This document shows, piece after piece, positions 3-58,140 of a stretch of 59,828 nt of DNA; position 1 is the first letter of the stretch, and each line of letters starts with the position of its first letter. Under the pieces are notes generated by a model. That model saw only the letters and a program-made list of their open reading frames with translations. It was not told where the DNA came from and ran no database searches. The DNA is taken from the NCBI GenBank assembly GCA_964458995.1, contig CAYWKW010000002.1, positions 1 through 59,828 on the forward strand, written 5' to 3'. The position numbers and the translations under genes are program-made. The stretch comes from an uncultured bacterium. GTDB taxonomy: Bacteria; Chlamydiota; Chlamydiia; Chlamydiales; SM23-39.

Positions 3-719
3 TACGGCTGCTCCGATTATCCCAATTGCGACTATACGGCCCCGCTTGAGGCGCTCTCCTTTAACAAAGAAGATTACGACCCGAACTTTGATTGGGATCA
101 ACCTTGCCCCATTTGCGGCTCGCCCTTGACTTTGCGGCATGGACGTTATGGCGCTTTTCTGGGTTGTACGAGGTATCCTGATTGCAAAGGGATCGTCAAT
201 ATTCCGAAGAAAGGGGAAAAAGTTTACTCGTCAGATGAGTTGCCCGCCTGCCCAGCCATTGGCTGCGATGGAAAGTTGACGGCTCGCAAATCCCGTTTTG
301 GAAAAACGTTCTTCTCTTGCTCCAACTTCCCCGATTGCGATGTGATTGTCTCTACACTCGATCAGATAGAAGAAAAGTACGATGCCCACCACCCGAAAAC
401 GGCCTACGTAAAAAAGGGGAAAAGGGGCGCCAAAAAAGGGGGAAAAGGGGAGAAAGAGCCCCCTGCCAAGAAGAAGAGAAAAATCGAACAACCTGCCTAC
501 AAGTTATCCCCCGATTTGGCAAAGATTGTGGGTGCAGCGGAGATGTCGCGCCCTGAAGTGACCAAACAAATCTGGGTTTACATCAAGGAACACCGGTTGC
601 AAGATCCATCGAATAAGAGGCGGATCATTCCCGATGCAGCCCTATCTAAAATCATTGGCAAGGAACCCATCGACATGATGAAACTCTCCTCATTTTTGAA
701 TAAGCACTTGAAAAAATGA
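3..719 (+). CDS. topA: DNA topoisomerase I, C-terminal zinc-ribbon repeats fused to a SWIB/MDM2 domain (5' end outside window)
   Basis: The frame is open from the window edge. Three topo-I type Cys4 ribbons are present: 'YGCSDYPNCDY', 'CPICGS..GAFLGCTRYPDCK' and 'CPAIGCDG..FFSCSNFPDCD'. A Lys-rich linker follows, then 'YKLSPDLAKIVG..MSRPEVTKQIWVYIKEHRLQDPSNKR', a SWIB signature. The TopA-SWIB fusion is a known Chlamydiae hallmark. Confidence 0.9.
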   Translation, partial: YGCSDYPNCDYTAPLEALSFNKEDYDPNFDWDQPCPICGSPLTLRHGRYGAFLGCTRYPDCKGIVNIPKKGEKVYSSDELPACPAIGCDGKLTARKSRFGKTFFSCSNFPDCDVIVSTLDQIEEKYDAHHPKTAYVKKGKRGAKKGGKGEKEPPAKKKRKIEQPAYKLSPDLAKIVGAAEMSRPEVTKQIWVYIKEHRLQDPSNKRRIIPDAALSKIIGKEPIDMMKLSSFLNKHLKK

Positions 720-3394: not shown

Positions 3395-3646
3395 ATGGCA
3401 ACAACACCCGAAGTTTCTACAGCCCTCGTGCCCTTTAATCCCGATATTCGGAAGGCCAACCCAATCCAGCCTCTCATTGAAACGCTTAAACATTTAGCTC
3501 TGGATCGATTCGCGTCGCTCCACCTCGTAGCCCCTCCTCCCGATATTACCCCTGAAAAAGCCCTCAGAGCAAGAACGCGCCGATTAGCGGACGTTTTGCC
3601 TCCGTTCCGTCAAACTTACTCAAACCTATCTATAGATAGATATTGA
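3395..3646 (+). CDS. Small hypothetical ORF abutting or overlapping the IS607-like element. It may be a gene remnant, or non-coding sequence belonging to the transposon right end.
   Basis: 83-aa ORF with no SD sequence. Its last 17 nt overlap the 3' end of tnpB on the other strand. No recognisable motif. Confidence 0.25.
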   Translation: MATTPEVSTALVPFNPDIRKANPIQPLIETLKHLALDRFASLHLVAPPPDITPEKALRARTRRLADVLPPFRQTYSNLSIDRY

Positions 3647-4823
3647 CGTTGACTTCCTGCTTCATCAGAGCAGTTTCACCGAATGGAATATCCATTCGAC
3701 CAGAGCTGCTTCCTCCACAGGCTTTTACCGTAGAACTTACGGCGTATTTTTCTAAATTCCTCGCTGCATTCACATCTCGATCGTGGAGACTTTTGCACTT
3801 AGGACATGTCCATTGTCGCACCGATAGCTCTAAAACAGGGAGCGTATAGTTGCAATTAGAGCAGATTTTACTGCTGGCAAAGAATCGGTCGGCTTTCACC
3901 AATACCTTTCCGCTCCTAGCCATTTTATACTCCAATTGTCGGCTGATCTCATGAAAGCCCATATCGGCAACCGATCGGGCAAGACGACGATTCTTCACCA
4001 TCTTGAGCACACTGAGATCCTCAATGCATACGACGCCAAATCGCTTCACAAGTGTTGTAGTAAACTTGTGGGTTGCATCAAGGCGAATGTTCGAGATGCG
4101 GGAATGAAGGCGGGCTAGCTTGGTTTTTGCTTTAGCCCGGTTTTTCGATCCCTTCACCTTTCGACTCAATGCTTTCGAAAACTGTTTTAGACGGCTAAGA
4201 AGTGATTTATGGGGTTTTGGTCCTGTGATTTTTTCTCCTGTGGAAAGCGTTGCCATAGCTGATAGACCTACATCAACTCCAACTATTTTTTGATTGGGGA
4301 CTGTTTTGGGTAAATCCGGCGCCTCGACAGCAATGCTGACAAACCAATGGTCTGCAATCCGGGATATGGTGGCTGAGAGGATCTTCCCCGAGAATCTCAG
4401 AGCTTCGCGCATCCGGACTTTTCCTAGATTTGGAATTTGGATGTGGCAGCCATCTACTTTAAACTGATCGTTGGTGAGTGTAAACCGATCGTGGATTCCT
4501 TTTTTTCGAAATTGGGGATATTTGGCCCTGCCAGCAAAAAAATTAACGAAGGCCCTACCTAGCTGCCTGATGGCCATTTGAGGAGCGTTTTTAGTCACTT
4601 CGAGCATCCAAGGAAATTGCTCTCGTTTAATCGAGTTTAGAAGTTTGCGTAGGGCTCCTTCTGTCGGGGCTGGCTTTTCTGGATCTTTCTTGCGCTCCTC
4701 ATATTGCTTTTGCCACTCGGAAAGAGCCCAATTATAAGCAAATCGAGCCACGCCGCAAGCTCTGCTTAGGTAGGTGGCTTGGAGATCGTTAGGATCAAGC
4801 GCAATCCGATGAGCTGTTAGCAT
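3630..4823 (-). CDS. tnpB: TnpB (OrfB_IS605 family) RuvC-type RNA-guided nuclease
   Basis: RuvC-I 'IVGVDVGLS', RuvC-II 'VVCIEDLSV', the Zn ribbon 'CSNCNY..CPKCKS' and RuvC-III 'HDRDVNAARN' are all present. The 397-aa length is typical. Confidence 0.9.
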   Translation of the reverse strand: MLTAHRIALDPNDLQATYLSRACGVARFAYNWALSEWQKQYEERKKDPEKPAPTEGALRKLLNSIKREQFPWMLEVTKNAPQMAIRQLGRAFVNFFAGRAKYPQFRKKGIHDRFTLTNDQFKVDGCHIQIPNLGKVRMREALRFSGKILSATISRIADHWFVSIAVEAPDLPKTVPNQKIVGVDVGLSAMATLSTGEKITGPKPHKSLLSRLKQFSKALSRKVKGSKNRAKAKTKLARLHSRISNIRLDATHKFTTTLVKRFGVVCIEDLSVLKMVKNRRLARSVADMGFHEISRQLEYKMARSGKVLVKADRFFASSKICSNCNYTLPVLELSVRQWTCPKCKSLHDRDVNAARNLEKYAVSSTVKACGGSSSGRMDIPFGETALMKQEVNVNIYL

Positions 4824-13520: not shown

Positions 13521-14534
13521 TCACGGTGATAGGGGCCTTTTCCCATACCTTCTCCCTCTTTCTTGTCCTGCCGGGGCCGGAGCTGGTTGCGGAGGTGATT
13601 CCGGTGAACGCTGCAGATTTTCGAGAAGAGATTGTTCTTTTGCGGCCTCTAGCGCTTCCTTATAACTCTTATAAGTCTGCCCATTATCCAGAATCGTCCG
13701 TGGTGGTCTACCAAACGGATCTGCCATTGCCCCCTCACTCGATTCCGTTCCATTACCTACTCCCGCCGCCGCTGAGGGTAGCCTCTGAGAAGGTTCCGTC
13801 CAATGGCTACCAGCTGCAGTGAGAGAGTTGAGTAGTGCTTGCTTCAGCTGCTTCTCTTCTTGTAATCTAGAAGATAAAGACGATCCTCCCTCTCGACTCG
13901 GTCCTGCTTTACCACCTGAATCATCTCCCGTAGGAATAGGATCGAAATCTTCTTCATCATCGTCACTCCGCAGCAAATCGCCAACTACGTCCTCCTCCTC
14001 CTCCTCCTCCTCCCCCCCAGGTCTCTGAAAATTCGGAGTTAAAGGAGGGATAGTAGTATATTGCAAAGCTGCCAAAGCTTCTTTAGGATGGTACTTCGCT
14101 TCTCTTGCTACAAATAGAAGATAAACAGCTAGGAAAGAGGCACCAAGATCTTGTACACGATGTGCCAATTCCTGGATCGACGACCGCCCCTCAACTAGTT
14201 GACTATGCAAGTGGTTATAAGCCGCCTGTATAGGGCTCCATTGCTTTTGCATCTCCTCCTGGAGTAGATCGGGTATAGTAAGTCCCTTCAGCTCTGTAGA
14301 AACAGTTGCGAAATGCTTTGAACAGTCCATGAAAATCATGGTTGCTTTGCCCCCATATGTTAATCCGTCCTTTCGTAACCTATTCCAAGAGACAGATCCT
14401 GGGCGATCCCCCCAAGGGACATTCTGATAGATGTCTCCCATCAATCCTTGCGCGGGTCGGGGATCAAGTGCGACAAGAATACTCGTTATGGCGCTTTTTA
14501 ATGTTTCAGTAATAACTGAAGGTACGGTCGCCAT
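13521..14534 (-). CDS. Orphan protein with an acidic low-complexity centre (E7 run, D/E-rich) and a Pro-rich C-terminus; effector-like
   Basis: 337-aa ORF with no recognisable enzymatic motif. It contains 'GGEEEEEEEDVVGDLLRSDDDEEDFDP' and ends in 'PESPPQPAPAPAGQ'. Confidence 0.55.
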   Translation of the reverse strand: MATVPSVITETLKSAITSILVALDPRPAQGLMGDIYQNVPWGDRPGSVSWNRLRKDGLTYGGKATMIFMDCSKHFATVSTELKGLTIPDLLQEEMQKQWSPIQAAYNHLHSQLVEGRSSIQELAHRVQDLGASFLAVYLLFVAREAKYHPKEALAALQYTTIPPLTPNFQRPGGEEEEEEEDVVGDLLRSDDDEEDFDPIPTGDDSGGKAGPSREGGSSLSSRLQEEKQLKQALLNSLTAAGSHWTEPSQRLPSAAAGVGNGTESSEGAMADPFGRPPRTILDNGQTYKSYKEALEAAKEQSLLENLQRSPESPPQPAPAPAGQERGRRYGKRPLSP

Positions 14535-14620: not shown

Positions 14621-16153
14621 CTAAAGAGTTGCGACCATTCGATTCAATGCCTGGACTTCCCGATCTTGCTGATATCCTTTGGGAAGGAGTAATTTTCTGC
14701 AAGTTCTGAAAAACGAGAGGGCATTCACTCCAACAGATGCGGCCACTTCAGGCATTGCAAAAGAGGAAGGTGCGAAACGAACCAGAGAGGAGACTCCCAA
14801 AGTCGTGCCTATGCTTGCGGCTGCGCTGATCCCTTTTGCAAGGAGACTATAGCACTTTTTGGCCCCGGTCACGACCAACATTTTCCCAATGCCGATTTGT
14901 GAAGTGGTTGTTCCCGCTTCCAAAGTAGGCGTTTTAGCGCTGCCAAAGATCTTTTCAGATACAAGCTCGCCTAATTTGACAGCCCCAGCTCCAAGCCCGA
15001 AAAAGATACCGCTAATGGCCGCTGATTTGATGACATCCATTGGTTTTGTTTTCTTCGGTTTTTGCAAGCTCCTCAGCTCTTCAATGGCTTTGTCAACTTT
15101 CTCATTGTCGCCCAGGTGCTTTTTTGCCTTTTCGAGTTCAACAATCGCCTCTTTAAATTGACCATTCAGTCGGAGGAAAACTGCAGCAGCAAGGGGAAGT
15201 TTTGCTGGATGACCTGGTTGTAATGGCGTGTGGACCTTTTCAATAGCTATACGAATAGAATCGCCCTTGTTGTTCTCTTTTTTCAATTTCCATGCCGTGA
15301 TTAAGTTCGTTAGGCAGCTAATTCCTGTGAGCGCTGTAACATAACGGTTTTGGCTTTCTGCGACAGGAGTGATTCCTGCGGCCAGAGGAATAAGGTCGAT
15401 CCCTGCAGCAAGCGCAGTGAGGCCCCCCATAAGCGCAAGAGAACGTTTGAAAGTTAACCCCCGGCCCATCGATTTACCGACTTTGCTCAGCATGTTGGAA
15501 ACGCCCGAAGTGGCGACCAATTTCAAAACCGAATCGCTCGATAATCTGCCCATAAATGCGGCAGCCATGCATATTCCTGTATACAGAGCTCCTAAGGCAA
15601 CTCTTCCGGCTTTAGAGTATTTTTCTGCTGCGAAAGAAGTCTCTTTTACGCCTAGGCCTAGCAAATTCATCGCTGCGAAACCCGTTGCTTTCCCTACAGT
15701 TTGAGGTTCCCCTTTAATGAAAAAAGCAGCGGCATCGGCAAGAGCTGCGGTTCCTACGCTAAGAGCTGCCCATGCCAGACCTTTTAAGGGAACCCGGTTT
15801 AATTGACCATCTTGTCTGTCTTGTTGATAGAGCCCTTTCACGCCTTCAGAAGTTAGGAAATTTAAACAAAGTGTTTGCGCGAGTTCGCCGTACCCCTCGT
15901 CACCGACCTTATTTCCCAATTTATTGCTTGTCGATAAAGCTAGGCACAACTGAGCCATGACAGTGGCGGCAAAAACAGCCCCTTTGCTCATGCGGGAAGC
16001 CCCTAAAGTTTTTTGTTTTATTACAGTTGAGGCGTCGGCCAAATTCCTCCCCAACCACTCAGCATCCCTCATTTCAGATACAGGCGATCCACTCTGTGCG
16101 GGGCTCATTTCTAATTCTAGCTGACTTAATTCACCTGATATAACAATTGCCAT
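14621..16153 (-). CDS. Orphan Gly/Ala-rich multi-pass membrane protein; Inc- or effector-like
   Basis: 510 aa with several long hydrophobic G/A/L stretches ('GLAWAALSVGTAALADAAAFF', 'LMGGLTALAAGIDLIPLAAGI', 'SAAISGIFFGLGAGAV'). A central helical segment reads 'FLRLNGQFKEAIVELEKAKKHLG'. The upstream leader is AT-rich. Confidence 0.6.
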   Translation of the reverse strand: MAIVISGELSQLELEMSPAQSGSPVSEMRDAEWLGRNLADASTVIKQKTLGASRMSKGAVFAATVMAQLCLALSTSNKLGNKVGDEGYGELAQTLCLNFLTSEGVKGLYQQDRQDGQLNRVPLKGLAWAALSVGTAALADAAAFFIKGEPQTVGKATGFAAMNLLGLGVKETSFAAEKYSKAGRVALGALYTGICMAAAFMGRLSSDSVLKLVATSGVSNMLSKVGKSMGRGLTFKRSLALMGGLTALAAGIDLIPLAAGITPVAESQNRYVTALTGISCLTNLITAWKLKKENNKGDSIRIAIEKVHTPLQPGHPAKLPLAAAVFLRLNGQFKEAIVELEKAKKHLGDNEKVDKAIEELRSLQKPKKTKPMDVIKSAAISGIFFGLGAGAVKLGELVSEKIFGSAKTPTLEAGTTTSQIGIGKMLVVTGAKKCYSLLAKGISAAASIGTTLGVSSLVRFAPSSFAMPEVAASVGVNALSFFRTCRKLLLPKGYQQDREVQALNRMVATL

Positions 16154-17271: not shown

Positions 17272-17642
17272 AAACAGACAAAGCGCCAAAAGCCATTGGC
17301 CCCTATTCGCAAGCCATTATGGCGCCCCCCTTTCTTTTCCTATCGGGAATGCTCCCCATCGATCCTAAAATGGGTAAAATTGTTGAAACAACCATCGAAG
17401 GGCAAACGAAACAGGCGCTTCACAACATTGAAGAGGTGCTCAAGGCCGCCTCGCTGACTTTTAAAGACGTCGTTCGGGTGGAAGTATTTCTAAAGGACTT
17501 GGCCGATTTCCAGGCGATGAATGGGATCTATGCCCAAAGATTTGCGCACGAGCCCAAACCGGCCCGCCACGCCTTTCAAGTCGCCCGCCTTCCGCTCGAT
17601 GCTCTGATCGAAATCACCTGCACGGCGCTCATTCGACCTTAG
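17259..17642 (+). CDS. ridA: RidA/YjgF family reactive-intermediate deaminase
   Basis: 127 aa. 'APKAIGPYSQAI' and the C-terminal '..ARHAFQVARLPLDALIEI' are family signatures. Confidence 0.9.
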   Translation: MQKIETDKAPKAIGPYSQAIMAPPFLFLSGMLPIDPKMGKIVETTIEGQTKQALHNIEEVLKAASLTFKDVVRVEVFLKDLADFQAMNGIYAQRFAHEPKPARHAFQVARLPLDALIEITCTALIRP

Positions 17643-18684
17643 GGACGACGATGGGGGTATTTCTCTTAAAGGGCCAGAAGGCATCCATATAGAAGGGAAC
17701 CGCGTTGGCTGCTGTCATGGAGAAAGCGATGGTCCCATGCACTGCGGGCCTGTTCAGTTGTGGCATGAGCGCAGCCATACTGATACCAAAAGAGGCCGTA
17801 TAGAGAGCCTGTTGGAACAAGCGGACGTATTGCGCTCGATTCCACTCGGCAATTCTCTTCCGCGTGAGGGCCAATTGCTCTTCAATCTCTTCTCTTTTCA
17901 GCAGTTTTTGCATCAATTTGAAGGTTTCTAAAGCGGCAACCGCTCCCATGTCAGCCTGGAACTGCTCCAATTTTTCACTCAATGCTTCGAGCGCGCTTTT
18001 CTCATCCATGCGAAGCAAAGGCTCCAAATGGAACGGATTTTTCACTTCGCGACCGCGGATTAGCTGCTGCATATTGTGTGTTTGTAATTGCGAGGCCAAG
18101 TCTTGGCCCGTTTGGATGTTTTTAATGCGGTAAATCACTTCCACCATCACCGGCGCCGCAAGGATGAAAAAGAGAACGGGAAGAAGCCAGGGATTGGCAG
18201 CAAAAAAGGCGCCGATTCCACCCAAAATAGCCACGTCCGTTGCCAATGATGCGAGAATCATAATCGTCCCAATCAAAGTCAGATCGATAAAGTCAATCAT
18301 CAATCGAATGCCGAGTTTGGTATCGCCGTTTTTAAAGGCTTGGATCGCCTCTTTTATACAGACCAGCCCCACGCCCAAGTTGATCACGCCCGCCACTATC
18401 CCGCAGGTAAGCGTCCCAATGGCAATCGCCGAAATACTCGACAAAGAGGGCTTAACAATTTGGACCCCCTGAAAGGCCAAATAGCCCATGGTGAAGAGAT
18501 CCCCGCCAACGAGAACGGCCTCGGAAAGATTGACCCTCCCATTCAGAGCAGCCTGGATATTCTCACTCTTTTTTTCAATGACGCTTCCCATGAGAAGGGC
18601 AAGTCTCTCATCTGTCAAATATTTATTACTAGGTTCTTGGGGGAACCTGGGTTCTGCAGAAGTAGGGAAATGAATAGCACTCAT
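17629..18684 (-). CDS. Orphan membrane protein with paired long hydrophobic lobes and a coiled C-terminal half; Inc-like
   Basis: 'ISAIAIGTLTCGIVAGVINLGVGLVCI' and 'LTLIGTIMILASLATDVAILGGIGAFFAANPWLLPVLFFILAAPVMV' are followed by a helical, charged segment. No enzymatic motif. Confidence 0.55.
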   Translation of the reverse strand: MSAIHFPTSAEPRFPQEPSNKYLTDERLALLMGSVIEKKSENIQAALNGRVNLSEAVLVGGDLFTMGYLAFQGVQIVKPSLSSISAIAIGTLTCGIVAGVINLGVGLVCIKEAIQAFKNGDTKLGIRLMIDFIDLTLIGTIMILASLATDVAILGGIGAFFAANPWLLPVLFFILAAPVMVEVIYRIKNIQTGQDLASQLQTHNMQQLIRGREVKNPFHLEPLLRMDEKSALEALSEKLEQFQADMGAVAALETFKLMQKLLKREEIEEQLALTRKRIAEWNRAQYVRLFQQALYTASFGISMAALMPQLNRPAVHGTIAFSMTAANAVPFYMDAFWPFKRNTPIVVPKVE

Positions 18685-40881: not shown

Positions 40882-42152
40882 TCGACGACCATTTGCGCGC
40901 CCATTTTTCGAAAATCATCGAAGAAAGTGGGGTAGCTCTTTGCTGTGCATTCAATGCCGTGGATCGTACTTTCCCCTTTTGCCGCAAGCGCCGCTACGGA
41001 AAGGGCCATCGCCAGGCGGTGGTCGTGATGCGATTGCAAATCTTTAGAGCCGTGCAGCTGCGATGACCTGATAATGAGTCCATCGGGCTTCTCTTCAATA
41101 TCAGCGCCCATTTTTTTAAGCTCGTTGGCAATACAGCGAATCCGATCCGATTCTTTAGTCCTTGCAATGGCCGCATTGACAATCTCTGTCTTTCCACTCG
41201 CAAAACACCCAACCACAGCTAAAATGGGCAGCGCATCGACAAAATCATTGATATCGATTTTTATTCCTTTTAGCCCCGTAGTTTTTTTAATGCTGCATTT
41301 TGTTCCATGCGTCTCAAATCGCGCTCCCATCGATTCAAGTGCAGCAATGAGAGCCTTATCGCCCTGCACATCGCTCATGTCGATGTTGTCCAACACGATT
41401 TCAGATTGCGTGATTACTCCGGCAACGAGTGGAAATGCAGCCGAGCTAAAATCGCCGGGAACGGTGTACTCAAAGCCTTTGATACGAGCGCCTCCCTTCA
41501 TCTTGTAGTGCTCAAAATGGCGATTTTCATAGAAAATGCCAAAGCGATCCAACCAACTCAAAGTGAGCTCGATCCAAGGTTTTTCACCCGGGTGGGTCAC
41601 ATGCAGCTCCAACGGGCTAAACGCCCCCAACACCAAAAGCCCCGAAACAGGTTGCGAATCTTCGCCCGAAAGAGTTGCTTTTCCTCCTTTCAACGGGCCT
41701 CGCACAATGATGGGAGCGTAGCCATCCAAACGGGCCGAAGCGGCAAAAGCCCCCAATTGCACCAACGCATCGAGCATCGGCTTCACAGGCCGGTTGTGGC
41801 GAATGGAAAGATCGCCGGTGAGAACCGTGTAGCTGTTGGACAAAGCGGCCAAAGCGCCAATGAATCGCAAAACTTGCCCCGAGTTGCCGCACTGAATCAC
41901 ATCCTCGGCAGTTCGCGGCTGGCCATCCACCCCATCGATGATCAGAGAATCGCGGTCGCTATCGAGCCTGGCCCCCAAATGGCGGATCGCATCGAGCATG
42001 GCAAACGTGTCGGGAGAGGCAAGCGGGCGGTGGATGCGGCTTTTTCCCTTGGCCATCAAGGCGAAAAGCAGAGAGCGGATCGTGTGTGATTTTGAGGTGG
42101 GGATGTCAATGGCGCCCTCCAATTTCCCCGGTTTGATTCTACACGTTGCCAT
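40878..42152 (-). CDS. aroA: 3-phosphoshikimate 1-carboxyvinyltransferase (EPSP synthase)
   Basis: 'PTSKSHTIRSL', 'CGNSGQVLRF' and 'HHDHRLAMA' are signatures. Confidence 0.95.
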   Translation of the reverse strand: MATCRIKPGKLEGAIDIPTSKSHTIRSLLFALMAKGKSRIHRPLASPDTFAMLDAIRHLGARLDSDRDSLIIDGVDGQPRTAEDVIQCGNSGQVLRFIGALAALSNSYTVLTGDLSIRHNRPVKPMLDALVQLGAFAASARLDGYAPIIVRGPLKGGKATLSGEDSQPVSGLLVLGAFSPLELHVTHPGEKPWIELTLSWLDRFGIFYENRHFEHYKMKGGARIKGFEYTVPGDFSSAAFPLVAGVITQSEIVLDNIDMSDVQGDKALIAALESMGARFETHGTKCSIKKTTGLKGIKIDINDFVDALPILAVVGCFASGKTEIVNAAIARTKESDRIRCIANELKKMGADIEEKPDGLIIRSSQLHGSKDLQSHHDHRLAMALSVAALAAKGESTIHGIECTAKSYPTFFDDFRKMGAQMVVE

Positions 42153-43263
42153 TCATCCACTCAATCATCCGCTCGAGATGTTTTACCTTGGAGCAATATT
42201 CGCCATTGAAGGGAACGGAGCGTCCGATTTGATCGATCAGCACAAAACGGGGCTCGCCGCCAATTGCTTTTTTATCCATTCGGATCGCGTCGAGAAAGTC
42301 CCTCTTCGCCACTGGCTTAAAAGCATAGCCCAACTTTCGATAGACACCCAAAATCGACTCGAGCGCCTCTTTTTGGAGATATCCTTCCAGATAACTCAAG
42401 TAGCTTTCTGCCATGCAGCCGAGGGCCACTGCCTCTCCATGCGCCATTTGAAAATCGGAAAGCAACTCCAAAGCATGCCCTACCGTGTGGCCAAAATTGA
42501 GAATGCGCCTCAACCCCGATTTTTCTTCAAAATCGGCCTCAACCACCCTCAATTTGCATTCGATCGAGGCGTGAATCAGAAACTCGATCTCATTTTCCCA
42601 ATGAAGACACCTTTCCCAAATGGCCCGGTTGGCGATCAACCCATATTTCAACACTTCGCTGAGCCCATTTTTCATCTGTTTTGGCGGCAAAGACTTGAGA
42701 AATTTAGACTCCACAAAAACGGCTTTTGGCAGATAGAACGTCCCGACTAAATTTTTCCCATAAGGCGTATCGACGCCGGTTTTCCCCCCGATAGCGGCAT
42801 CGACCATGGCCAACAGCGTCGTAGGGATGAGAACCAAAGGCACGCCGCGCATATAAGTAGACGCTAAAAAAGCTACCAAATCGGTGGTGACCCCGCCGCC
42901 CAAAGCGATGATCCACGTTTCTCTTCCTAACTTTCGGATCAGCAGTTCATTTTCGAGAGTCTCTTTAGTTTCTCTCGACTTGTATTCCTCTCCGCTTGGA
43001 ACCGGAATGAGATCAAAACCCACCCTTCCTTGCACGACAGCTCCATGCGTACTTGCGATAGACTCATCAGCAAAGATCACACCCCGTTTGCCCTGGCAAA
43101 ACTCTTCCAAAGGCTCCAAACCAAAAAAGAATTCCGACTTAACAGGCGTGATCGCGGGCTTCAAAACCAAATCTCCCATACTTCCCCAGTATAAGGGAAA
43201 AGGGTCTCTCCCGCAATGCTGAATCTTGACTAATTTGTTGATCACTATTATCCTTTCTCCCAA
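42139..43263 (-). CDS. aroB: 3-dehydroquinate synthase
   Basis: 'ALGGGVTTDLVAF', 'DAAIGGKTGV', 'LNFGHTVGHALE'. Confidence 0.92.
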   Translation of the reverse strand: MGERIIVINKLVKIQHCGRDPFPLYWGSMGDLVLKPAITPVKSEFFFGLEPLEEFCQGKRGVIFADESIASTHGAVVQGRVGFDLIPVPSGEEYKSRETKETLENELLIRKLGRETWIIALGGGVTTDLVAFLASTYMRGVPLVLIPTTLLAMVDAAIGGKTGVDTPYGKNLVGTFYLPKAVFVESKFLKSLPPKQMKNGLSEVLKYGLIANRAIWERCLHWENEIEFLIHASIECKLRVVEADFEEKSGLRRILNFGHTVGHALELLSDFQMAHGEAVALGCMAESYLSYLEGYLQKEALESILGVYRKLGYAFKPVAKRDFLDAIRMDKKAIGGEPRFVLIDQIGRSVPFNGEYCSKVKHLERMIEWMNGNV

Positions 43264-43280
43264 TTAAATGGAGGCTTATA

Positions 43281-43886
43281 TTGAGCACAGGCGCTGTATC
43301 TCCCGCAGATTTTAGCTTACCTTCACCTCCGCTAGGTTTCCCTCCTCCACACGGCGACGATTCTTGGCTTACTTCGCATAGAATCGCCCAGGCCGCTCTT
43401 GCGCATGCGAAGCGGATGTTTAATCAATTGGCTCAACAACCTGGACCCCAAGTTTCTCAACCTGACCTATCGTTGCTCGACGAGGAACGTTTTCCGATAC
43501 CAGCAGGGCAGAGAGCTTCACCAGGTCCACCTCTGCCCCCTTTACCAATTCCAGATGCTCCCTCAAGTGAGCACGCAGCTCCAAAGAAAAAAAGGACCCG
43601 ATTACAAACAGATTCGAATTCAGATGGATCGCCTGGTCCCGCAACACTGGAAAAAAAGAAACTAAGGTCTCGTTGCTCAGCTAGAGAATACCGGATACGA
43701 AAAGCTGCCGATAGGCATGTGTTAGAAATCGACAATGCGCTATTAGAAGACCAAGTGACAAACTTAAATGAACAGCTCGCAAGGTATGCAATGATTCTTA
43801 CTGGAAAGGATGCTAAAATTGCAGTGCTGCAACGGCAAATAAGATACCTCTCTGTTTTAAATGCAACCCTGTTCCCTCCCCCCTGA
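43281..43886 (+). CDS. Pro-rich protein with an SV40-like basic motif and a C-terminal bZIP-like basic region plus short leucine zipper
   Basis: TTG start 8 nt after 'ggagg'. 'APKKKRTRL' is present. 'KKKLRSRCSAREYRIRKAADRHV' is followed by L-x6-L-x6-L-x6-Y ('LEIDNAL LEDQVTN LNEQLAR Y'). Confidence 0.6.
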   Translation: MSTGAVSPADFSLPSPPLGFPPPHGDDSWLTSHRIAQAALAHAKRMFNQLAQQPGPQVSQPDLSLLDEERFPIPAGQRASPGPPLPPLPIPDAPSSEHAAPKKKRTRLQTDSNSDGSPGPATLEKKKLRSRCSAREYRIRKAADRHVLEIDNALLEDQVTNLNEQLARYAMILTGKDAKIAVLQRQIRYLSVLNATLFPPP

Positions 43887-43941
43887 GCCTGCAATAGCGG
43901 CGATTTTCGGGATAAATGTTCTATTATGCCATTTTTTTATA

Positions 43942-43970
43942 TTGAATGATTTTATTTCCGGTGTTATAAT
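43942..43970 (+). promoter_or_regulatory. Candidate sigma-70/66-type promoter for the 44004 gene
   Basis: 'ttgaat', a 17-nt spacer, then 'tataat'. This lies 33 nt upstream of the ATG in a very AT-rich spacer. Confidence 0.45.
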
Positions 43971-44003
43971 ACTTTATTTAATAAAATATTACATAGGGTA
44001 ATT

Positions 44004-44801
44004 ATGAGCGGAATTACAGACACCTGGAGCGCAATTACAGACACCTGCAATTCACCACCACCAGCTTTGCCAGTCGAATATCAACCAAGCTATGCGCGGG
44101 AACCCTTCTTTGCGGAGCTGCAGCGCCGAGCTGAGCAGGAGCGGCGGGTAGGGAATGTCTTTGCTCTGGCGGCGCCAACAATGACTCAAGCTCCTCAAGC
44201 CTCAGTTTTGCCACCACCAGCAGGGGCTCCACCTAGCCCTCGAATGCTTTCGCCAATACCCCTACCACCCAATCCGCCAGGATTCCTTCTACCGAATATG
44301 CTTGGCGATGGCTCTGAGGAAGACCGTGCGCCTCAGAATCATGGGCTGCAACAACAACAGGCTGAGGATCCTCAAGCCGCAGCCGTTCCCCCTGCCCCCC
44401 CTAGAAGAGGTCAAAAAAGGTGCCCGGCAGTGAGGACGCCGGAAGAGAGGGAAGCGTACAGGAAAGCATATGTAGCAAGACGTAATCGCGAAACCTACGA
44501 AGAAACTAAACAAATAAAGGCCAAGGCTGCACGATTAGAAGTAGAGAATGCGCAATCAAACGAAAAGGTAGAGTTCCTTGAAGGAAGGGTTCATGCATTG
44601 CAAACGGAGAGGCTTTTAATATTAGGAGAGAATGCGCAATTAAAGGGAAAAATAGAGTCCCTTAAAAGAGAGATTCAAGAATTGCAAAGGGAGAGGGTTT
44701 CAACCACTCAGCAACTTATGGGGATTCCAGGAGTTCTAGTTGAGATGAGTCAAACTGTTATGCGCGCTGCTATGAGTCTGAACCCGCAGGGCAGACCCTA
44801 G
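44004..44801 (+). CDS. Pro-rich protein with a C-terminal bZIP-like basic region plus six-heptad leucine zipper; paralog-like to 43281-43886
   Basis: 'YRKAYVARRNRETYEETKQIKAKAARLE' has Asn, Thr/Lys and Lys at the bZIP N-x7-R/K-type spacing. It is followed by 'LEGRVHA LQTERLL ILGENAQ LKGKIES LKREIQE L'. Confidence 0.65.
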   Translation: MSGITDTWSAITDTCNSPPPALPVEYQPSYAREPFFAELQRRAEQERRVGNVFALAAPTMTQAPQASVLPPPAGAPPSPRMLSPIPLPPNPPGFLLPNMLGDGSEEDRAPQNHGLQQQQAEDPQAAAVPPAPPRRGQKRCPAVRTPEEREAYRKAYVARRNRETYEETKQIKAKAARLEVENAQSNEKVEFLEGRVHALQTERLLILGENAQLKGKIESLKREIQELQRERVSTTQQLMGIPGVLVEMSQTVMRAAMSLNPQGRP

Positions 44802-45670
44802 TTCATTGGTTTTGACATGTAAAAATGGCCGATTTGCTGGATCATTTGGTTAACCGATTTGACCCAGCTGATCGCCTCTTTCCCCATCACCTTAATAATG
44901 AGACCCCACGCAGCCGCTAGTAGAGCAATACCCACCCAAGATTTGAGCGAAATTCCCAAAAAGACGATTTGAACTTGCGGCGCTAACCGGTTGGCAATTC
45001 CAAGAAACATATCTGTAAGAAGAATTCCAATAAGAGCTGGAGCGGAAAGTTGGATCGAAAGGGTCATCATCATATTAAGTAGAGAGATCATCTGCTTCCA
45101 AAAGGGTGTTTGGAGGGTAAAGAGAGTCGGACTGATAAGGCCGTCAACTGGGATCAACTGATAGGAGGTGGCCACGCCATCGAGAAAAATAAAGGGGCCG
45201 TTGAGGAGAAAAAAAGTGGCTATCAGAACATAGTTGTAGAGCATCCCGATGGGGCCCGTTTGCGATTGAGTTGTCGGGTCGGTGACTTGCAGCGCCGAGG
45301 AGCCCCGTTGATGGTCGATCAGACTCCCCGCCATGAGGGCAATATAAAAGGGGACGGCCGCAAAAAAACCCAGAATCATCCCAATGAGCAGCTCTTTTGC
45401 CATAAGGCCGATAAAGGCGCCATTGAATGGGAGTTCGCCCTTAGCAACCATCAAATTTTGCGGCAGAAAAATGGCGACCAGAGCGATGGCAAACATCATG
45501 CGCAGCGCCATCGGCAGGTTGCGGGGGGCGCCGAAGAAGGGGGCCAAGGCCATGATCGGAAGCATGCGGGCTAAGGTGAGAAAAAAGAGAGAGAGAACGG
45601 TCGCGGGCTGGAGGTGGGGCAGTGAGAGAAGCAGCGATACATAGCTATCGGTCGCTGTGAGAGTATCCAT
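44798..45670 (-). CDS. sctT: Type III secretion export apparatus protein SctT (CdsT/YscT)
   Basis: 290-aa FliR/SctT-type polytopic protein, positioned after sctS. Confidence 0.88.
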   Translation of the reverse strand: MDTLTATDSYVSLLLSLPHLQPATVLSLFFLTLARMLPIMALAPFFGAPRNLPMALRMMFAIALVAIFLPQNLMVAKGELPFNGAFIGLMAKELLIGMILGFFAAVPFYIALMAGSLIDHQRGSSALQVTDPTTQSQTGPIGMLYNYVLIATFFLLNGPFIFLDGVATSYQLIPVDGLISPTLFTLQTPFWKQMISLLNMMMTLSIQLSAPALIGILLTDMFLGIANRLAPQVQIVFLGISLKSWVGIALLAAAWGLIIKVMGKEAISWVKSVNQMIQQIGHFYMSKPMN

Positions 45671-46736: not shown

Positions 46737-47360
46737 TTACTTTTTCATGAAGGATTCGAACGCGGACTCAAGAGCGCGCCACTGGTTCTCTAGTTGTGCA
46801 TTGATAATACCTGCTTCGGTTTCTATCATGCAACCCCCCGGTTCAATATCGCCTCTTTCTTGGATCGAAAAGCTTTCGAGGTGTTCGAAGATTTTTTTGA
46901 TTTTGCCCCTGTTTTCTTCAATGGTAGGCAAGTCGGCTTTGTTTACATAAATCGTGATTTTTCGATGCTGCGTTACAGGCTTCAAAGAGGTCAGAACAAT
47001 ATCGACAATCCGGTCGGGATGAAGCCTCAACTCTTCGCCGATGATTTTTCTAGCTGCTTTCAAAGAGAGGGGCAAGAGCTTCTTTTGGATATCCTCCCTC
47101 AATGTTTTTAGCTCTTTATCTAAAGCGATAATATGTTTGTTGAGCGAGGTGAGCCCTTCTTGAAAACCCTCTTTAAAGGCTTGTTCTTTGATCGCTTCCG
47201 CCTCTTTGACCGCTTCTTGCTTAAAAACAACCGCCTCGGCCTTGACTGTTTTTAAGATTTCATGGGCATCTTCTAAAGTGCTGAATTCTTTGCCGGGAAT
47301 GACCTTTTTGCCTGGGGCCACTCGCACTTCTTTACCGAAAAAGAGGGAAAAAAATTTCAT
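46737..47360 (-). CDS. sctL: Type III secretion stator protein SctL (CdsL; FliH-like)
   Basis: 207 aa. The N-terminal half is a charged coiled coil and the C-terminal domain is FliH/SctL-like. The position matches CT561. Confidence 0.75.
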   Translation of the reverse strand: MKFFSLFFGKEVRVAPGKKVIPGKEFSTLEDAHEILKTVKAEAVVFKQEAVKEAEAIKEQAFKEGFQEGLTSLNKHIIALDKELKTLREDIQKKLLPLSLKAARKIIGEELRLHPDRIVDIVLTSLKPVTQHRKITIYVNKADLPTIEENRGKIKKIFEHLESFSIQERGDIEPGGCMIETEAGIINAQLENQWRALESAFESFMKK

Positions 47361-48199
47361 AAGAGCTCTTCAATTTGTCTTACGATCGCCTCGGATACAC
47401 CGTGGATCGGTTCTTTTGTGCAAAGCTTAAAGAGAGCGTTTCCTCGGCCGATATCTAGCTGATGGCAGACGTACCAGACGAGATCGGGGTCTTGTCCAGA
47501 AAGAGCCGCTCCCATTCGAACCAGGCCCCTTCGATGCAGAAGCGTCCGCAGCGATTCTTCAGATCCATCCCACCGATCGAGTCCCATCCGTCCCAAAACA
47601 AAATGTTCTTTATGAGTCGAAGCGACCTTTAGGAATTTCTTCTCTTCCTCTGATAAGAAACTGTAGATTTTTTTCAGGATTTTTGTCTCTACAATTTGGC
47701 GAAGTTCCGCAGCGAGATCGTACAAAGAGAGGATATCGATAATTCGGGTCAGCTCTTTTTTGTTTAAGTTCAGCAGTGGTTTTAGCGGTGTCGGAGGCAG
47801 ATAGTCAACCGGCAAGAGGCGATCATTTGGCCCCACCAAACTGTGCAATAGAATCTGACGCAAATAGGCTCTAGACACGTCGGTGATTTCTTGCGAGGGG
47901 ATCGTCGTCTCCAATACTTTAGCCAAATTTTTTGCCGAGCTATTGCCCAAAGCGGATAGAAATAATTTTTGTTCCTCTTCGGTATAGGACTTTAATGTAG
48001 GCAAAAACCAAGACCAGTGGACTTTATCTAAAACGGCCCCGTTGGAAAAGCTTTCTGGAGTAACTGTTTCGGCAAAAGAGGGGAGTTTTTCTAAACGTTC
48101 CCGTTCCTGATCTGGCAAAAATCGTTCCAGCGCCCTTTTTTTTTCAGGCTCGCAGCGGCTTAAAAAAGCCTTGAGAACCATCTCGCTGGGATTTCTCAA
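47357..48199 (-). CDS. T3SS-cluster protein at the position of C. trachomatis CT560 (possible SctK equivalent)
   Basis: It is translationally coupled on both sides (sctJ stop and sctL start overlaps). No motif was recognisable by eye, so the call rests on conserved gene order. Confidence 0.55.
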   Translation of the reverse strand: MRNPSEMVLKAFLSRCEPEKKRALERFLPDQERERLEKLPSFAETVTPESFSNGAVLDKVHWSWFLPTLKSYTEEEQKLFLSALGNSSAKNLAKVLETTIPSQEITDVSRAYLRQILLHSLVGPNDRLLPVDYLPPTPLKPLLNLNKKELTRIIDILSLYDLAAELRQIVETKILKKIYSFLSEEEKKFLKVASTHKEHFVLGRMGLDRWDGSEESLRTLLHRRGLVRMGAALSGQDPDLVWYVCHQLDIGRGNALFKLCTKEPIHGVSEAIVRQIEELL

Positions 48200-56742: not shown

Positions 56743-58140
56743 ATGGCATCAACTAGACCACCATCTGCCGCAGGAGTGGCCCCCGCAGCCTCTGTAGTTG
56801 CGACGGTTAACGGAAAATCAGCTCCTGAATATTTACAAGAAATATGTTCATGCATTGAAATTCTTGTCCAACTTTCTAAGAAACAAGAAGGTGAATATCG
56901 ATTCGCTGTTTGGGATCGGACTGTTTGCCGTTTGGATGCAGTTAGAAAAGTGATTCCTGAATTTGTTGATCAAGCAACTGCAGCTCGACGCACAAAACAA
57001 GAGGCGGAAGAATATTTTGATGCTTGCTTGAATCCAGCAGAGGTAAAGGTTAAAAGTCAAAGACCAGTAAATGGACAATATTGGGCCAGGCTGGATCAAT
57101 ATAATTTTGATCTTGGAAATATAATATCTAATAAGATGTCCGCCGAAAAATCTAAACAATATCGTACTGATCTTTCTAAAAGGTTAGCAGATATCAAACA
57201 TGTTCTTGCTAAAAGGCAAGCTGATGGTGAATTAGATGAATTGGAAATCCAACTCCGTGATAAAAAGTATGAATCGATCGGACGAAAACTTCAGATTCTT
57301 TCTGTGGATGATTTTTATGATGAGCTTTGTAGTCTGAGTGGCCAGTTGGCTGAAATAGAACTGGACGCGCAGAATGTTGATGGTGTGGATCAAAATATCA
57401 CGATCATTATGACTAGAGTTCAACAGATTGAAGAGACAGTCAGAAAGCTCCCAAAGAAACCAGAAAGTGATGCAGATTTTAATGGAATGACTACTGAGAA
57501 AGCTGAAAAATTAATAACTACTATTGCGGAAATTCGAAAAGAGGCTGCAGAGCTAGAACGCCAACTTGAAGAAATGCCTGCATACAGAGGAACTTCTGCC
57601 TTTACAATAAGATCAGTTACAAAACAAATACAAAACGTAATCGTCATTCTGGAAAACTTAAATTTAGTTTTAGCAAATCGCTATTTAAAAGCCAATAATC
57701 CACAACGATTCGCCGAGCTCCAAGATAATTTCGTGCAATGTAAACGTCGATTGGAACAGATCAACTGCAATATCACTGGTGTACTTCAGGATGATTTCGA
57801 CAGGCTGGAAGCTTTGAATAGTTCTGCGCAACTGAAAGCCAAAATCCAAAAGAAGATTGACCAACAGGCTACATGGATCCGAGCATGTGGACACGATGTT
57901 GCAGAATTAGCGACACAAATGCAAAAACATGGAGTCACGGCAGCAGCAAAGCTTCGAACTTGTGGACACAATGCAAAAGAATTATGGATGCAAGTGAGAG
58001 CAGATGGAGTCACGGCAACTGCTAGGAGAGCTTATACTGCTGCCCAAACTAAATTAGCGCCGTTAGCTCCCTATGCTGGCTATGCAAAAGGAACGGCCTT
58101 GGTTGGCGCTGGAATAGTACTAGCCAGAATGTTCCCTTAA
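56743..58140 (+). CDS. Orphan coiled-coil protein with a C-terminal tandem repeat and hydrophobic tail; effector- or Inc-like
   Basis: 465 aa, with an AT-rich gene and leader. The protein is long, charged and helical. The repeat reads 'ACGHDVAELATQMQKHGVTAAAKLR / TCGHNAKELWMQVRADGVTATARRA'. The tail is 'GTALVGAGIVLARMF'. Confidence 0.6.
   Translation: MASTRPPSAAGVAPAASVVATVNGKSAPEYLQEICSCIEILVQLSKKQEGEYRFAVWDRTVCRLDAVRKVIPEFVDQATAARRTKQEAEEYFDACLNPAEVKVKSQRPVNGQYWARLDQYNFDLGNIISNKMSAEKSKQYRTDLSKRLADIKHVLAKRQADGELDELEIQLRDKKYESIGRKLQILSVDDFYDELCSLSGQLAEIELDAQNVDGVDQNITIIMTRVQQIEETVRKLPKKPESDADFNGMTTEKAEKLITTIAEIRKEAAELERQLEEMPAYRGTSAFTIRSVTKQIQNVIVILENLNLVLANRYLKANNPQRFAELQDNFVQCKRRLEQINCNITGVLQDDFDRLEALNSSAQLKAKIQKKIDQQATWIRACGHDVAELATQMQKHGVTAAAKLRTCGHNAKELWMQVRADGVTATARRAYTAAQTKLAPLAPYAGYAKGTALVGAGIVLARMFP

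What the first reader, a model, noticed from the sequence alone, without database searches (positions are those of the whole stretch)
43281..44801. Two tandem bacterial genes encoding eukaryote-type bZIP-like proteins directly beside the T3SS apparatus genes
Both proteins have a Pro/Ser-rich, low-complexity N-terminal half and end in a basic region followed by a heptad Leu repeat, the defining architecture of eukaryotic bZIP transcription factors. Gene 2 has 'ARRNRETYEETKQIKAKAARLE' with Asn, Thr-Lys and Lys at the bZIP basic-region spacing. It is followed by six uninterrupted heptads, 'LEGRVHA LQTERLL ILGENAQ LKGKIES LKREIQE L'. Gene 1 has 'KKKLRSRCSAREYRIRKAAD' followed by L-x6-L-x6-L-x6-Y, plus 'APKKKRTRL', which closely resembles the SV40 PKKKRKV nuclear-localisation signal. 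The genes are adjacent, same-strand and paralog-like, so they could form homo- or heterodimers. Gene 2 has its own AT-rich promoter-like spacer. The pair abuts sctT. bZIP domains are essentially eukaryotic, so a plausible hypothesis is a pair of secreted nucleomodulins that dimerise with, or compete against, host (amoebal) bZIP factors.
Basis: partly seen in the sequence, partly recalled or inferred. Interest (0 to 1): 0.8.

Follow-up and report, generated by a model that had tools for sequence, protein, structure and literature searches.

The report
Chlamydial orphan gene with bZIP-like domain
An uncultured chlamydia-like bacterium carries, wedged between its type III secretion genes and its aromatic amino-acid genes, two orphan genes; one encodes a near-canonical but unusual copy of a eukaryote-only gene-regulator domain (bZIP) and may be injected into the host, while the other is only a generic coiled-coil protein.

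Summary
Both ORFs are real: g1 at 43281-43886 and g2 at 44004-44801, on the + strand and convergent with sctT. An independent assembly reproduces them.

g1's C-terminus is a probable divergent bZIP domain.
- Pfam bZIP_1 scores 26.7 bits (E 6e-6) against a cut-off of 27.6. bZIP_2 and bZIP_Maf are the next hits.
- The alignment is ungapped and in canonical register: R138 at +8, then L148, L155, L162, Y169.
- The invariant Asn is Ser130. Changing that one residue back to Asn gives 33.4 bits, which passes the cut-off.
- Shuffling the basic region abolishes the hit.
- In an exhaustive search of 1.84 billion proteins, the only meaningful non-self match is a fungal bZIP protein.

g2 is not a bZIP by any test. 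It gives only coiled-coil noise. Its Asn/Lys motif sits one residue out of register with the zipper. Part of its zipper arose by an internal 84-nt duplication.

g1 and g2 are not detectable paralogs, and simple e/g charge rules disfavour a g1-g2 dimer.

The pair is a lineage-specific 1.6-kb insert. One relative has sctT and aroB 16 nt apart, and others hold unrelated genes there. Codon usage of both genes is atypical.

Secretion, nuclear import and DNA binding are inferred, not shown.

The parts
42139..43179 (-). aroB (3-dehydroquinate synthase), left border of the insert. The real start is probably ATG 43179, not the TTG at 43263.
   Evidence: Pfam DHQ_synthase plus DHQS_C. 'MGDLVLKPAITP...' aligns with the AroB N-termini of L009 and L007.
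43180..43280 (+). Spacer upstream of g1, with a promoter-like site at 43226-43254 (TTGACT-17-TATCCT) and GGAGG at 43270-43274.
   Evidence: The promoter is a consensus match only.
43281..43886 (+). g1, a 201-aa orphan protein: S/T/P-rich N-terminus, helix 28-51, Pro-rich disordered linker 52-133, C-terminal helix 134-197.
   Evidence: The annotated frame scores best of the six frames.
43578..43604 (+). APKKKRTRL (aa 100-108), a motif that looks like a monopartite nuclear localisation signal.
   Evidence: Read directly from the sequence. Function not tested.
43650..43721 (+). g1 basic region (aa 124-147). Ser130 (codon 43668-43670) stands where bZIPs have the invariant Asn; R138 is at +8. The 25 residues before the first zipper Leu hold 10 K/R and 3 D/E.
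43722..43862 (+). g1 leucine zipper (aa 148-194). d positions: L148 L155 L162 Y169 K176 L183 L190. Asn152 is at an a position. The e/g residues of the first two heptads are acidic.
43887..44003 (+). AT-rich spacer with a promoter-like site, TTGAAT-17-TATAAT preceded by TG (43942-43970).
44004..44801 (+). g2, a 265-aa orphan protein: S/T-rich N-terminus, helix 33-54, Pro-rich disordered linker 55-145, helix 146-239 (mean pLDDT about 93-98 over residues 161-230), helix 242-258.
44006..44047 (+). 21-nt tandem duplication (95% identical) encoding SGITDTW/SAITDTC at the extreme N-terminus of g2.
   Evidence: family D3.
44540..44703 (+). Internal tandem duplication of 84 nt (28 aa, four heptads; 79% nt identity) that makes up much of g2's zipper.
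   Evidence: family D1. The two protein copies share 11 of 28 residues.
44798..45670 (-). sctT, the last gene of the sctJ-?-sctL-sctR-sctS-sctT cluster and the right border of the insert.
   Evidence: Pfam Bac_export_1 and NCBIfam SctT.

Best explanation
A 1.6-kb lineage-specific insert (43180-44797) lies between sctT and aroB of an environmental Chlamydiota genome. It carries two orphan genes whose products share one build: an S/T/P-rich N-terminus, a short helix, a Pro-rich disordered linker of about 80-90 residues, and a long C-terminal helix.

Shown:
- g1's C-terminal helix is a divergent eukaryote-type bZIP-like domain of 'S-R-L-L-L' type, with Ser130 in place of the invariant Asn and otherwise canonical register. 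A KKKR motif precedes it.
- g2's helix is a self-compatible leucine-zipper coiled coil, partly built by an internal four-heptad duplication. It is not a bZIP.

Inferred:
- Both proteins are type III secretion substrates.
- g1 enters the host nucleus and pairs through its zipper with host bZIP factor(s). Its first two heptads carry only acidic e/g residues, as in Fos, which disfavours homodimers.
- With Ser instead of Asn in the DNA-contact core, g1 would act as a dominant-negative partner or redirect binding to an altered site.
- g2's target is unknown.
For: bZIP-like domain in g1:
- bZIP_1, bZIP_2 and bZIP_Maf are the top three Pfam hits, with no competing coiled-coil family above 15 bits.
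- HMM positions 7-52 align ungapped to residues 124-169.
- Controls: a shuffled basic region gives no hit in 3 of 3 trials; an intact basic region with a scrambled zipper gives about 12 bits; the zipper alone gives nothing; S130N gives 33.4 bits, above the cut-offs of bZIP_1 and bZIP_2.
- PDB phmmer's best matches are MafA/MafB, in the same register.
- hhalign against 12 reference bZIPs gives P 1.3e-4 over 44 columns that include the basic region.
- The exhaustive phmmer search's only meaningful hit is a Dacryopinax bZIP protein, E 1.2e-5.
- Functional bZIPs with a substituted Asn are known in oomycetes (PMC4046829).

Insert and accessory status:
- L009 has sctT and aroB 16 nt apart. L004, L007, L008, L005 and L001 hold unrelated content at that site.
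- Synonymous codon usage is atypical, z -2.7 and -2.8, with GC3 0.36 and 0.43 against 0.54.
- No homologues were found anywhere.

Bacterial expression signals: GGAGG before g1 and promoter-like sites before each gene.

Dimerisation by e/g pairs: g1 homodimer 0 attractive and 2 repulsive; g2 homodimer 3 attractive and 1 repulsive.
Against: - g1 misses the Pfam gathering score (23.0 bits for the full protein, 26.7 for the domain, against 27.6) and lacks the family's most conserved residue.
- hhalign probability is only 54%.
- The library-wide E-value of the fungal hit is helped by that protein's two bZIP copies and by Pro-rich flanks. The bZIP part alone scores about 35 bits pairwise.
- There are no orthologues, so there is no evidence of purifying selection on the basic region.
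- The genes occur in a single uncultured genome (two assemblies with identical g1/g2 proteins, possibly from the same sample).
- Codon scores are far below those of typical genes.
- Nothing here tests secretion, nuclear import, dimerisation or DNA binding.
- Adjacency to sctT is weak evidence, because the same slot holds fumarase genes in L004.
Confidence: 0.45

Rival explanations
1. Chance or convergent resemblance. g1 and g2 are fast-evolving, lineage-specific coiled-coil proteins, whether effectors or not. A Lys/Arg-rich segment in front of a heptad repeat mimics a bZIP without common descent or bZIP-like function.
For: - g1 is below the Pfam cut-off and lacks the invariant Asn.
- g2 shows that basic-plus-zipper layouts arise here without bZIP register, partly by local duplication.
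- hhalign probability is 54%.
- No homologues exist to show conservation.
Against: - The basic region alone contributes about 12 bits at exactly the right HMM positions, and the R-x9-L spacing is exact.
- Shuffles never reproduce the hit.
- Only bZIP families score, whereas g2 draws more than 25 generic coiled-coil families.
- The best match in 1.84 billion proteins is a true bZIP in the same register.
Confidence: 0.3
2. One reading: both genes are paralogous bZIP proteins that form homo- or heterodimers with each other and act together as nucleomodulins.
For: - The two proteins share a domain architecture.
- The genes are adjacent and on the same strand.
- g2 has N161-x7-K169, a basic flank (9 K/R in 25 residues) and Asn at a positions.
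Against: - g2's motif is one residue out of register with its zipper.
- Pfam and hhalign align only g2's zipper.
- There is no significant g1-g2 similarity.
- The e/g rule gives 1 attractive and 4 repulsive pairs for a g1-g2 dimer.
Confidence: 0.1
3. The proteins stay in the bacterium, for example as regulators or chaperones linked to the T3SS, or as nucleoid- or division-associated coiled-coil proteins.
For: - They lie beside the export-apparatus genes.
- Coiled coils are common in T3SS accessory proteins.
- g2 gives weak hits to bacterial coiled-coil families such as DivIC, ZapB and SMC.
Against: - The genes are absent from every relative that has the same T3SS cluster, so they are not part of the machine.
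- Long Pro-rich disordered linkers and a KKKR motif are unusual for such proteins.
- All those family hits are far below their cut-offs.
Confidence: 0.1
4. The genes are not functional: spurious ORFs, decaying remnants of a transfer, or an assembly chimera.
For: - Codon-usage scores (-0.02 and 0.01) are far below those of typical genes (0.24 +/- 0.08).
- In the N-terminal halves the second-best frame scores almost as well.
- They are orphans, and g1 is on record only from the Logan gene call.
Against: - The annotated frame is the best of six for both genes, clearly so in the C-terminal halves.
- ORFs of 201 and 265 codons lie in roughly 49-52% GC DNA, with an RBS and promoter-like sites.
- A second assembly gives the same arrangement and identical g1 and g2 proteins.
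- Both flanks are contiguous with bacterial genes.
Confidence: 0.05

Closest known systems
Eukaryotic bZIP transcription factors (Pfam bZIP_1, bZIP_2, bZIP_Maf), especially the oomycete classes in which the invariant Asn is substituted
   Same: g1 has a basic region directly continuous with a heptad Leu zipper. R138 is at +8 and L148/L155/L162 are at +18/+25/+32. It has R at +1, A at +4, Y at +7 (as I recall for ATF4) and R-K at +10/+11, plus Asn at an a position of the zipper. A Pro-rich region and an NLS-like motif lie upstream. Oomycete bZIPs show that the Asn can be replaced in functional proteins (PMC4046829).
   Different: g1 is encoded by a bacterium. Ser replaces the invariant Asn, a substitution not among those the paper names (Cys, Arg, Val 'or other amino acids'). 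It scores 0.9 bits under Pfam's cut-off. No orthologues are known. g2 does not belong to this family.
Viral bZIP mimics (EBV Zta/BZLF1, KSHV K-bZIP, HTLV-1 HBZ, MDV Meq); from my own knowledge
   Same: A pathogen-encoded bZIP-type protein that would enter the host nucleus and pair with, or compete against, host bZIP factors.
   Different: Those are viral proteins made inside the host cell. Here the protein would have to be delivered by a bacterial injectisome. No sequence relationship was tested beyond including Zta in the local HMM.
Bacterial nucleomodulins and effectors that mimic transcription factors (Xanthomonas TAL effectors, Anaplasma AnkA, Chlamydia NUE and SinC, phytoplasma SAP54/phyllogens that mimic the MADS K-domain coiled coil)
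   Same: The concept of a secreted bacterial protein acting on host transcription. SAP54-type effectors work by mimicking a transcription factor's coiled-coil oligomerisation domain, which is what g1's zipper, and possibly g2, would do.
   Different: None of these uses a bZIP fold. A 2021 nucleomodulin review and a 2020 Legionella mimicry review mention neither bZIP nor leucine zipper, and literature searches found no bacterial bZIP effector.
Eukaryote-like domain proteins of environmental chlamydiae (F-box, BTB, ankyrin and similar; PMC4209131 appeared in the search lists)
   Same: Lineage-specific accessory genes with a eukaryote-type domain in an amoeba-associated or protist-associated phylum, often regarded as effectors.
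   Different: Those families are expanded and recognisable by Pfam. g1 is a single-copy orphan with a transcription-factor domain.

Membership tests
bZIP domain (g1) | Score at or above the Pfam gathering threshold for bZIP_1, bZIP_2 or bZIP_Maf | tested here: not met
   bZIP_1 gives 23.0 bits for the full protein and 26.7 bits for the domain alone, against 27.6. bZIP_2 gives 16.7 against 22.3, and bZIP_Maf 15.3 against 22. The single change S130N gives 33.4 and 23.3 bits, which pass both cut-offs.
bZIP domain (g1) | Invariant N-x7-R/K in the basic region | tested here: not met
   Ser130 occupies the Asn position. Arg138 at +8 is present. Asn substitutions occur in oomycete bZIPs (PMC4046829).
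bZIP domain (g1) | Fixed spacing from the basic region to the zipper (R-x9-L), then Leu every seven residues | tested here: met
   R138-x9-L148, then L155, L162, Y169, (K176), L183, L190. The match to HMM positions 7-52 is ungapped.
bZIP domain (g1) | One continuous helix spanning the basic region and the zipper | tested here: inconclusive
   The single-sequence AF2 model has a helix at 134-197 with block-mean pLDDT about 54-72. Residues 124-133 are not helical in the monomer. Basic regions normally fold only on DNA (my knowledge).
bZIP domain (g1) | Dimerisation and sequence-specific DNA binding | not testable with these tools
   Only the e/g charge rule was applied: 0 attractive and 2 repulsive pairs for a homodimer.
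bZIP domain (g2) | Pfam threshold, with the basic region aligned | tested here: not met
   bZIP_1 gives 12-14.5 bits over the zipper only (residues 196-229), ranked among more than 25 generic coiled-coil families. hhalign aligns 21 zipper columns only. The local HMM gives E 0.8.
bZIP domain (g2) | N-x7-R/K in register with the zipper (+18 to the first Leu) | tested here: not met
   N161-x7-K169 is present, but the first zipper Leu, L178, is at +17. The heptad d positions are 178/185/192/199/206/213/220/227.
Type III secretion effector | N-terminal secretion signal, or translocation shown | not testable with these tools
   Composition only: 13 of the first 30 residues are S, T or P in both proteins, and no hydrophobic signal-peptide-like stretch is visible in those residues (no predictor was run). 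No T3S predictor or assay was available.
Type III secretion effector | Accessory, lineage-specific gene in a genome with an injectisome | tested here: met
   An injectisome cluster lies next door. The genes are absent from six related loci. Codon usage is atypical. This is suggestive, not defining.
Nucleomodulin | Functional nuclear localisation signal and nuclear localisation | not testable with these tools
   The PKKKRT motif at 101-106 fits the K-K/R-x-K/R consensus (the consensus is from my knowledge). Such a short motif is common by chance.

The most novel reading that the evidence does not exclude
g1 is the first bacterial, injectisome-delivered bZIP-type protein. On this reading it is a domain captured from a eukaryote or rebuilt, carrying a Ser-for-Asn DNA-contact core. 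It would heterodimerise with host (protist) bZIP factors in the nucleus to rewire transcription, a bacterial counterpart of viral Zta, HBZ and Meq.
Probability: 0.3. Interest if true: 0.85.

Novelty: new variant of a known kind. Interest (0 to 1): 0.55.

Why it matters
bZIP factors are described as exclusive to eukaryotes (PMC4046829). Bacterial nucleomodulins known so far use SET, ankyrin, TAL-repeat and other folds, not bZIP.

A secreted bacterial bZIP mimic would be a new route for manipulating host transcription. It would also be a natural Asn-to-Ser basic-region variant, useful for studying bZIP specificity and dominant-negative design.

It would further show that the sctT-aroB junction in this chlamydial lineage is a slot where accessory genes, possibly effectors, come and go.

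The case rests on one orphan gene in one uncultured genome, so its weight is limited until expression and secretion are shown.

Tried and rejected
Searches that found no homologues:
- Word-indexed homology searches for g1 and g2 returned only the query itself.
- The exhaustive phmmer search for g1 returned, besides itself, an FN3-repeat protein matched only through g1's Pro-rich linker (rejected as low-complexity) and one fungal bZIP.
- Metagenome scans with g2 and g1, and a viral scan with g1, found nothing.
- tblastn of g2 against plasmids and phages found nothing.

Tests of g1-g2 paralogy:
- BLASTP and Smith-Waterman with shuffles were not significant.

Synteny:
- I looked for diverged homologues in relatives by synteny. 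The slot holds unrelated orphans, fumarase genes, an intimin-like gene or nothing.

Insert borders:
- I looked for terminal repeats. Only a 10-nt inverted match (43161-43170 / 44806-44815) turned up, which lies inside aroB and sctT and is probably chance.

Other steps:
- Fold search was not run. The models are single long helices, and g1's model has low confidence, so matches would be meaningless.
- NCBIfam gave nothing for g1 and only SMC/PcsB coiled-coil noise for g2.
- Literature searches for bacterial bZIP effectors returned nothing relevant.
Full report
**The observation**

- g1 runs 43281-43886 on the + strand. It has a TTG start with GGAGG six nucleotides upstream, and it encodes 201 aa.
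- g2 runs 44004-44801 on the + strand, with an ATG start and 265 aa. Its stop overlaps the stop of the convergent sctT gene by 4 nt.
- All quoted peptides are present.
- A Logan assembly of run SRR9179563 yields a 6-kb contig with the same order, aroK-aroA-aroB | g1 g2 | sctT-sctS. Its gene caller also chose the 201-aa TTG start, and the g1 and g2 proteins are identical.

**The setting**

- On the minus strand the order is sctJ, a 280-aa protein with no family, sctL, sctR, sctS, sctT, then the insert, then aroB-aroA-aroK-aroC.
- SctL passes the NCBIfam model PRK06328.
- The 280-aa protein has 353 relatives. Those that carry a name are labelled Chlamydiota, Parachlamydiales or 'Chlamydiae bacterium RIFCSP...' MAGs, and two are labelled Verrucomicrobia MAGs.
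- The window also encodes a topoisomerase Zn-ribbon plus SWIB ORF, a combination I know as typical of chlamydiae.
- The organism is therefore an uncultured environmental chlamydia of about 49% GC. Its host is unknown.

**g1 is a probable divergent bZIP domain**

Profile and pairwise searches:
- Against Pfam, the full protein gives bZIP_1 (23.0 bits, E 8.4e-5), bZIP_2 and bZIP_Maf as its only three hits.
- The last 86 residues alone give 26.7 bits (E 6e-6) against a gathering score of 27.6. The only other family is SlyX at 14.6 bits.
- The match is ungapped: HMM positions 7-52 align to residues 124-169.
- phmmer against PDB finds the MafA and MafB bZIP domains first, in the same register.
- hhalign against 12 reference bZIP sequences gives P 1.3e-4 and probability 54% over 44 columns that include the basic region.

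| Position | Residue | Note |
|---|---|---|
| 0 | Ser130 | the invariant Asn position |
| +1 | R | |
| +3 | S | as I recall for HY5 |
| +4 | A | |
| +7 | Y | as I recall for ATF4 |
| +8 | R138 | |
| +10/+11 | R-K | |
| +18, +25, +32, +39 | L148, L155, L162, Y169 | |

The heptad continues to L190, and Asn152 sits at an a position.

Controls:

| Variant of the 86-aa domain | bZIP result |
|---|---|
| Basic region shuffled, zipper intact | no hit (3 of 3) |
| Basic region intact, zipper scrambled within heptad positions | about 12 bits at HMM 7-~40 (3 of 3) |
| Whole-domain shuffles | none |
| Zipper alone | none |
| S130N | 33.4 bits (E 5e-8), passing bZIP_1 and bZIP_2 cut-offs |

- The score therefore needs both halves in the right juxtaposition. 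The one missing feature is the Asn.
- A local HMM built from the 13 references picks out g1 alone among 498 stop-to-stop segments of the window and a relative (E 2e-5). g2 scores E 0.8.

**The exhaustive search**

- phmmer of g1 against 1.84 billion representatives found three proteins at E <= 0.001.
- They were g1 itself, a 2846-aa FN3-repeat protein matched only through the Pro-rich linker (noise), and P0004.
- P0004 is a 'BZIP domain-containing protein' of the basidiomycete Dacryopinax primogenitus. It passes all three Pfam bZIP models.
- The alignment runs from a DSxxxGSP motif through the basic region into the zipper, with g1 S130 opposite the Asn of QNRLAAQRSRARK. It is 36% identical over 58 residues, with pairwise E 1e-6.
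- Caveat: the library-wide E of 1.2e-5 is helped by P0004's two bZIP copies and by Pro-rich flanks. It does not identify a donor.

**g2 is not a bZIP**

- Pfam returns more than 25 generic coiled-coil families at 10-18 bits. bZIP_1 appears among them at 12-14.5 bits, aligned only to the zipper at residues 196-229.
- PDB hits are designed coiled coils, tropomyosin and similar proteins.
But the heptad d positions are L178, S185, L192, L199, I206, L213, L220 and L227, so the first Leu is at +17, not +18. That puts the motif out of phase with the dimer axis.
- The contact positions read T, Y, T, K instead of A, A, S/C, R.
- Part of the zipper is an internal tandem duplication of 84 nt, or four heptads (44540-44619 and 44624-44703, 79% nt identity). 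The first 14 codons contain a 21-nt tandem duplication.

**Relation between the two genes**

- They share an architecture in single-sequence AF2 models:

| | N-terminal helix | Disordered linker | Long C-terminal helix |
|---|---|---|---|
| g1 | 28-51 | 52-133 | 134-197 |
| g2 | 33-54 | 55-145 | 146-239 |

- They share no detectable sequence similarity. BLASTP finds nothing. Smith-Waterman on the C-terminal domains gives p 0.14 against heptad-preserving shuffles, and on the N-terminal halves p 0.07.
- By the classical g-e' charge rule (my knowledge of leucine-zipper specificity, counted):

| Pairing | Attractive | Repulsive |
|---|---|---|
| g1 homodimer | 0 | 2 |
| g2 homodimer | 3 | 1 |
| g1-g2 | 1 | 4 |

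- This weakly argues that g1 needs a partner with basic e/g residues in its first heptads, and that g2 is not that partner.

**The pair is a lineage-specific insert**

Relatives were found through sctT or the 280-aa cluster protein:

| Locus | Identity | Content after sctT |
|---|---|---|
| L009 | 74% | sctT stop, 16 nt, aroB ATG; nothing between |
| L004 | 75% | two fumarase subunit genes on the opposite strand |
| L007 | 76% | an unrelated 161-aa orphan |
| L008 | 75% | an unrelated 187-aa orphan overlapping the sctT stop by 4 nt |
| L005 | 73% | an intimin-like gene |
| L001 | sctT 85% | DUF6065 and the suf operon |

- None of these resembles g1 or g2.
- Comparison of AroB N-termini places the real aroB start at ATG 43179. 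That leaves a spacer of about 100 nt holding a promoter-like site in front of g1.
- Both genes have atypical synonymous codon usage (z -2.7 and -2.8) and low GC3 (0.36 and 0.43, against 0.54 +/- 0.09). The annotated frame is still the best of six.
- No mobile-element signature flanks the insert.

**Most likely mechanism**

- Shown: a bacterial, lineage-specific gene encodes a bZIP-like basic-region-zipper helix behind a disordered Pro-rich linker and a KKKR motif.
- Inferred: g1, and possibly g2, is a type III substrate. The grounds are the S/T/P-rich N-termini, the absence of any visible hydrophobic signal-peptide-like stretch there (no predictor was run), accessory status, and a genome whose lifestyle depends on an injectisome.
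- Inferred: g1 enters the host nucleus and pairs with host bZIP factor(s). With Ser for Asn, it either poisons their DNA binding or shifts site preference.
- Oomycete bZIPs show that Asn-substituted bZIPs can be functional (PMC4046829).
- I put about 0.7 on g1 carrying a genuine bZIP-type domain, and about 0.4 on the effector/nuclear mechanism.

**Comparison with what is known**

- bZIPs are described as exclusive to eukaryotes (PMC4046829).
- Reviews of nucleomodulins and of Legionella mimicry mention neither bZIP nor leucine zipper. Six literature searches found no bacterial bZIP effector.
- The closest functional analogues are the viral bZIP proteins (Zta, K-bZIP, HBZ, Meq) and phytoplasma SAP54-type mimics of a transcription factor's coiled coil (my knowledge).
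- Formally g1 fails two membership tests, the Pfam cut-off and the invariant Asn. I therefore file it as bZIP-like, not as a member.

**Verdict**

The finding is real and moderately interesting for g1, and ordinary for g2. It rests on one orphan gene in one uncultured genome.

Noticed in passing
window 43180-44797; L001, L004, L005, L007, L008, L009: The junction after sctT is a variable slot in this chlamydial lineage. It holds nothing (L009, 16 nt), fumarase genes (L004), unrelated small orphans on the opposite strand (L007 161 aa, L008 187 aa), an IAT_beta/Beta_helix gene (L005), or DUF6065 plus suf (L001).
   Followed up: yes
window 44540-44703 and 44006-44047: g2 contains an 84-nt (four-heptad) internal tandem duplication at 79% identity, and a 21-nt tandem duplication at 95% identity in its first codons. 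This is recent local growth of a coiled coil and of the N-terminal segment.
   Followed up: partly
window 43177-43263 (- strand): The longest aroB ORF (TTG 43263, 374 aa) is probably over-extended. Relatives' AroB N-termini align from the ATG at 43179 ('MGDLVLKPAITP').
   Followed up: partly
window 47357-48199 (- strand): A 280-aa protein between sctJ and sctL has no Pfam or NCBIfam family, yet has 353 relatives at E <= 1e-5, almost all unnamed MAG proteins. One relative has a precomputed PF01706 hit. It is a conserved chlamydial T3SS-cluster gene without a family model.
   Followed up: partly
window 126-719 (+): An ORF with two topoisomerase-type C4 zinc ribbons followed by a SWIB/MDM2 domain. 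SWIB is a eukaryote-like chromatin domain that I know as a chlamydial hallmark.
   Followed up: no
window 32165-34048 (-): A 627-aa protein with a TPR repeat and a C-terminal Ntox50 (bacterial toxin 50) domain. It is a possible toxin or effector.
   Followed up: no
window 3630-4823 (-): An IS605 OrfB/TnpB-type gene (OrfB_IS605, Cas12f1-like TNB and HTH domains), a mobile element in the same contig.
   Followed up: no
window 13521-14534, 14621-16153, 17629-18684, 56743-58140: Four further ORFs of 337-510 aa have no Pfam family. ORF 13521-14534 has the most atypical synonymous codon usage of the 35 reference genes, similar to g1 and g2. They may be more lineage-specific accessory genes.
   Followed up: no
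window 1860-3284 (-): A 474-aa protein with a eukaryote-type Ser/Thr protein kinase domain (Pkinase, 98 bits).
   Followed up: no
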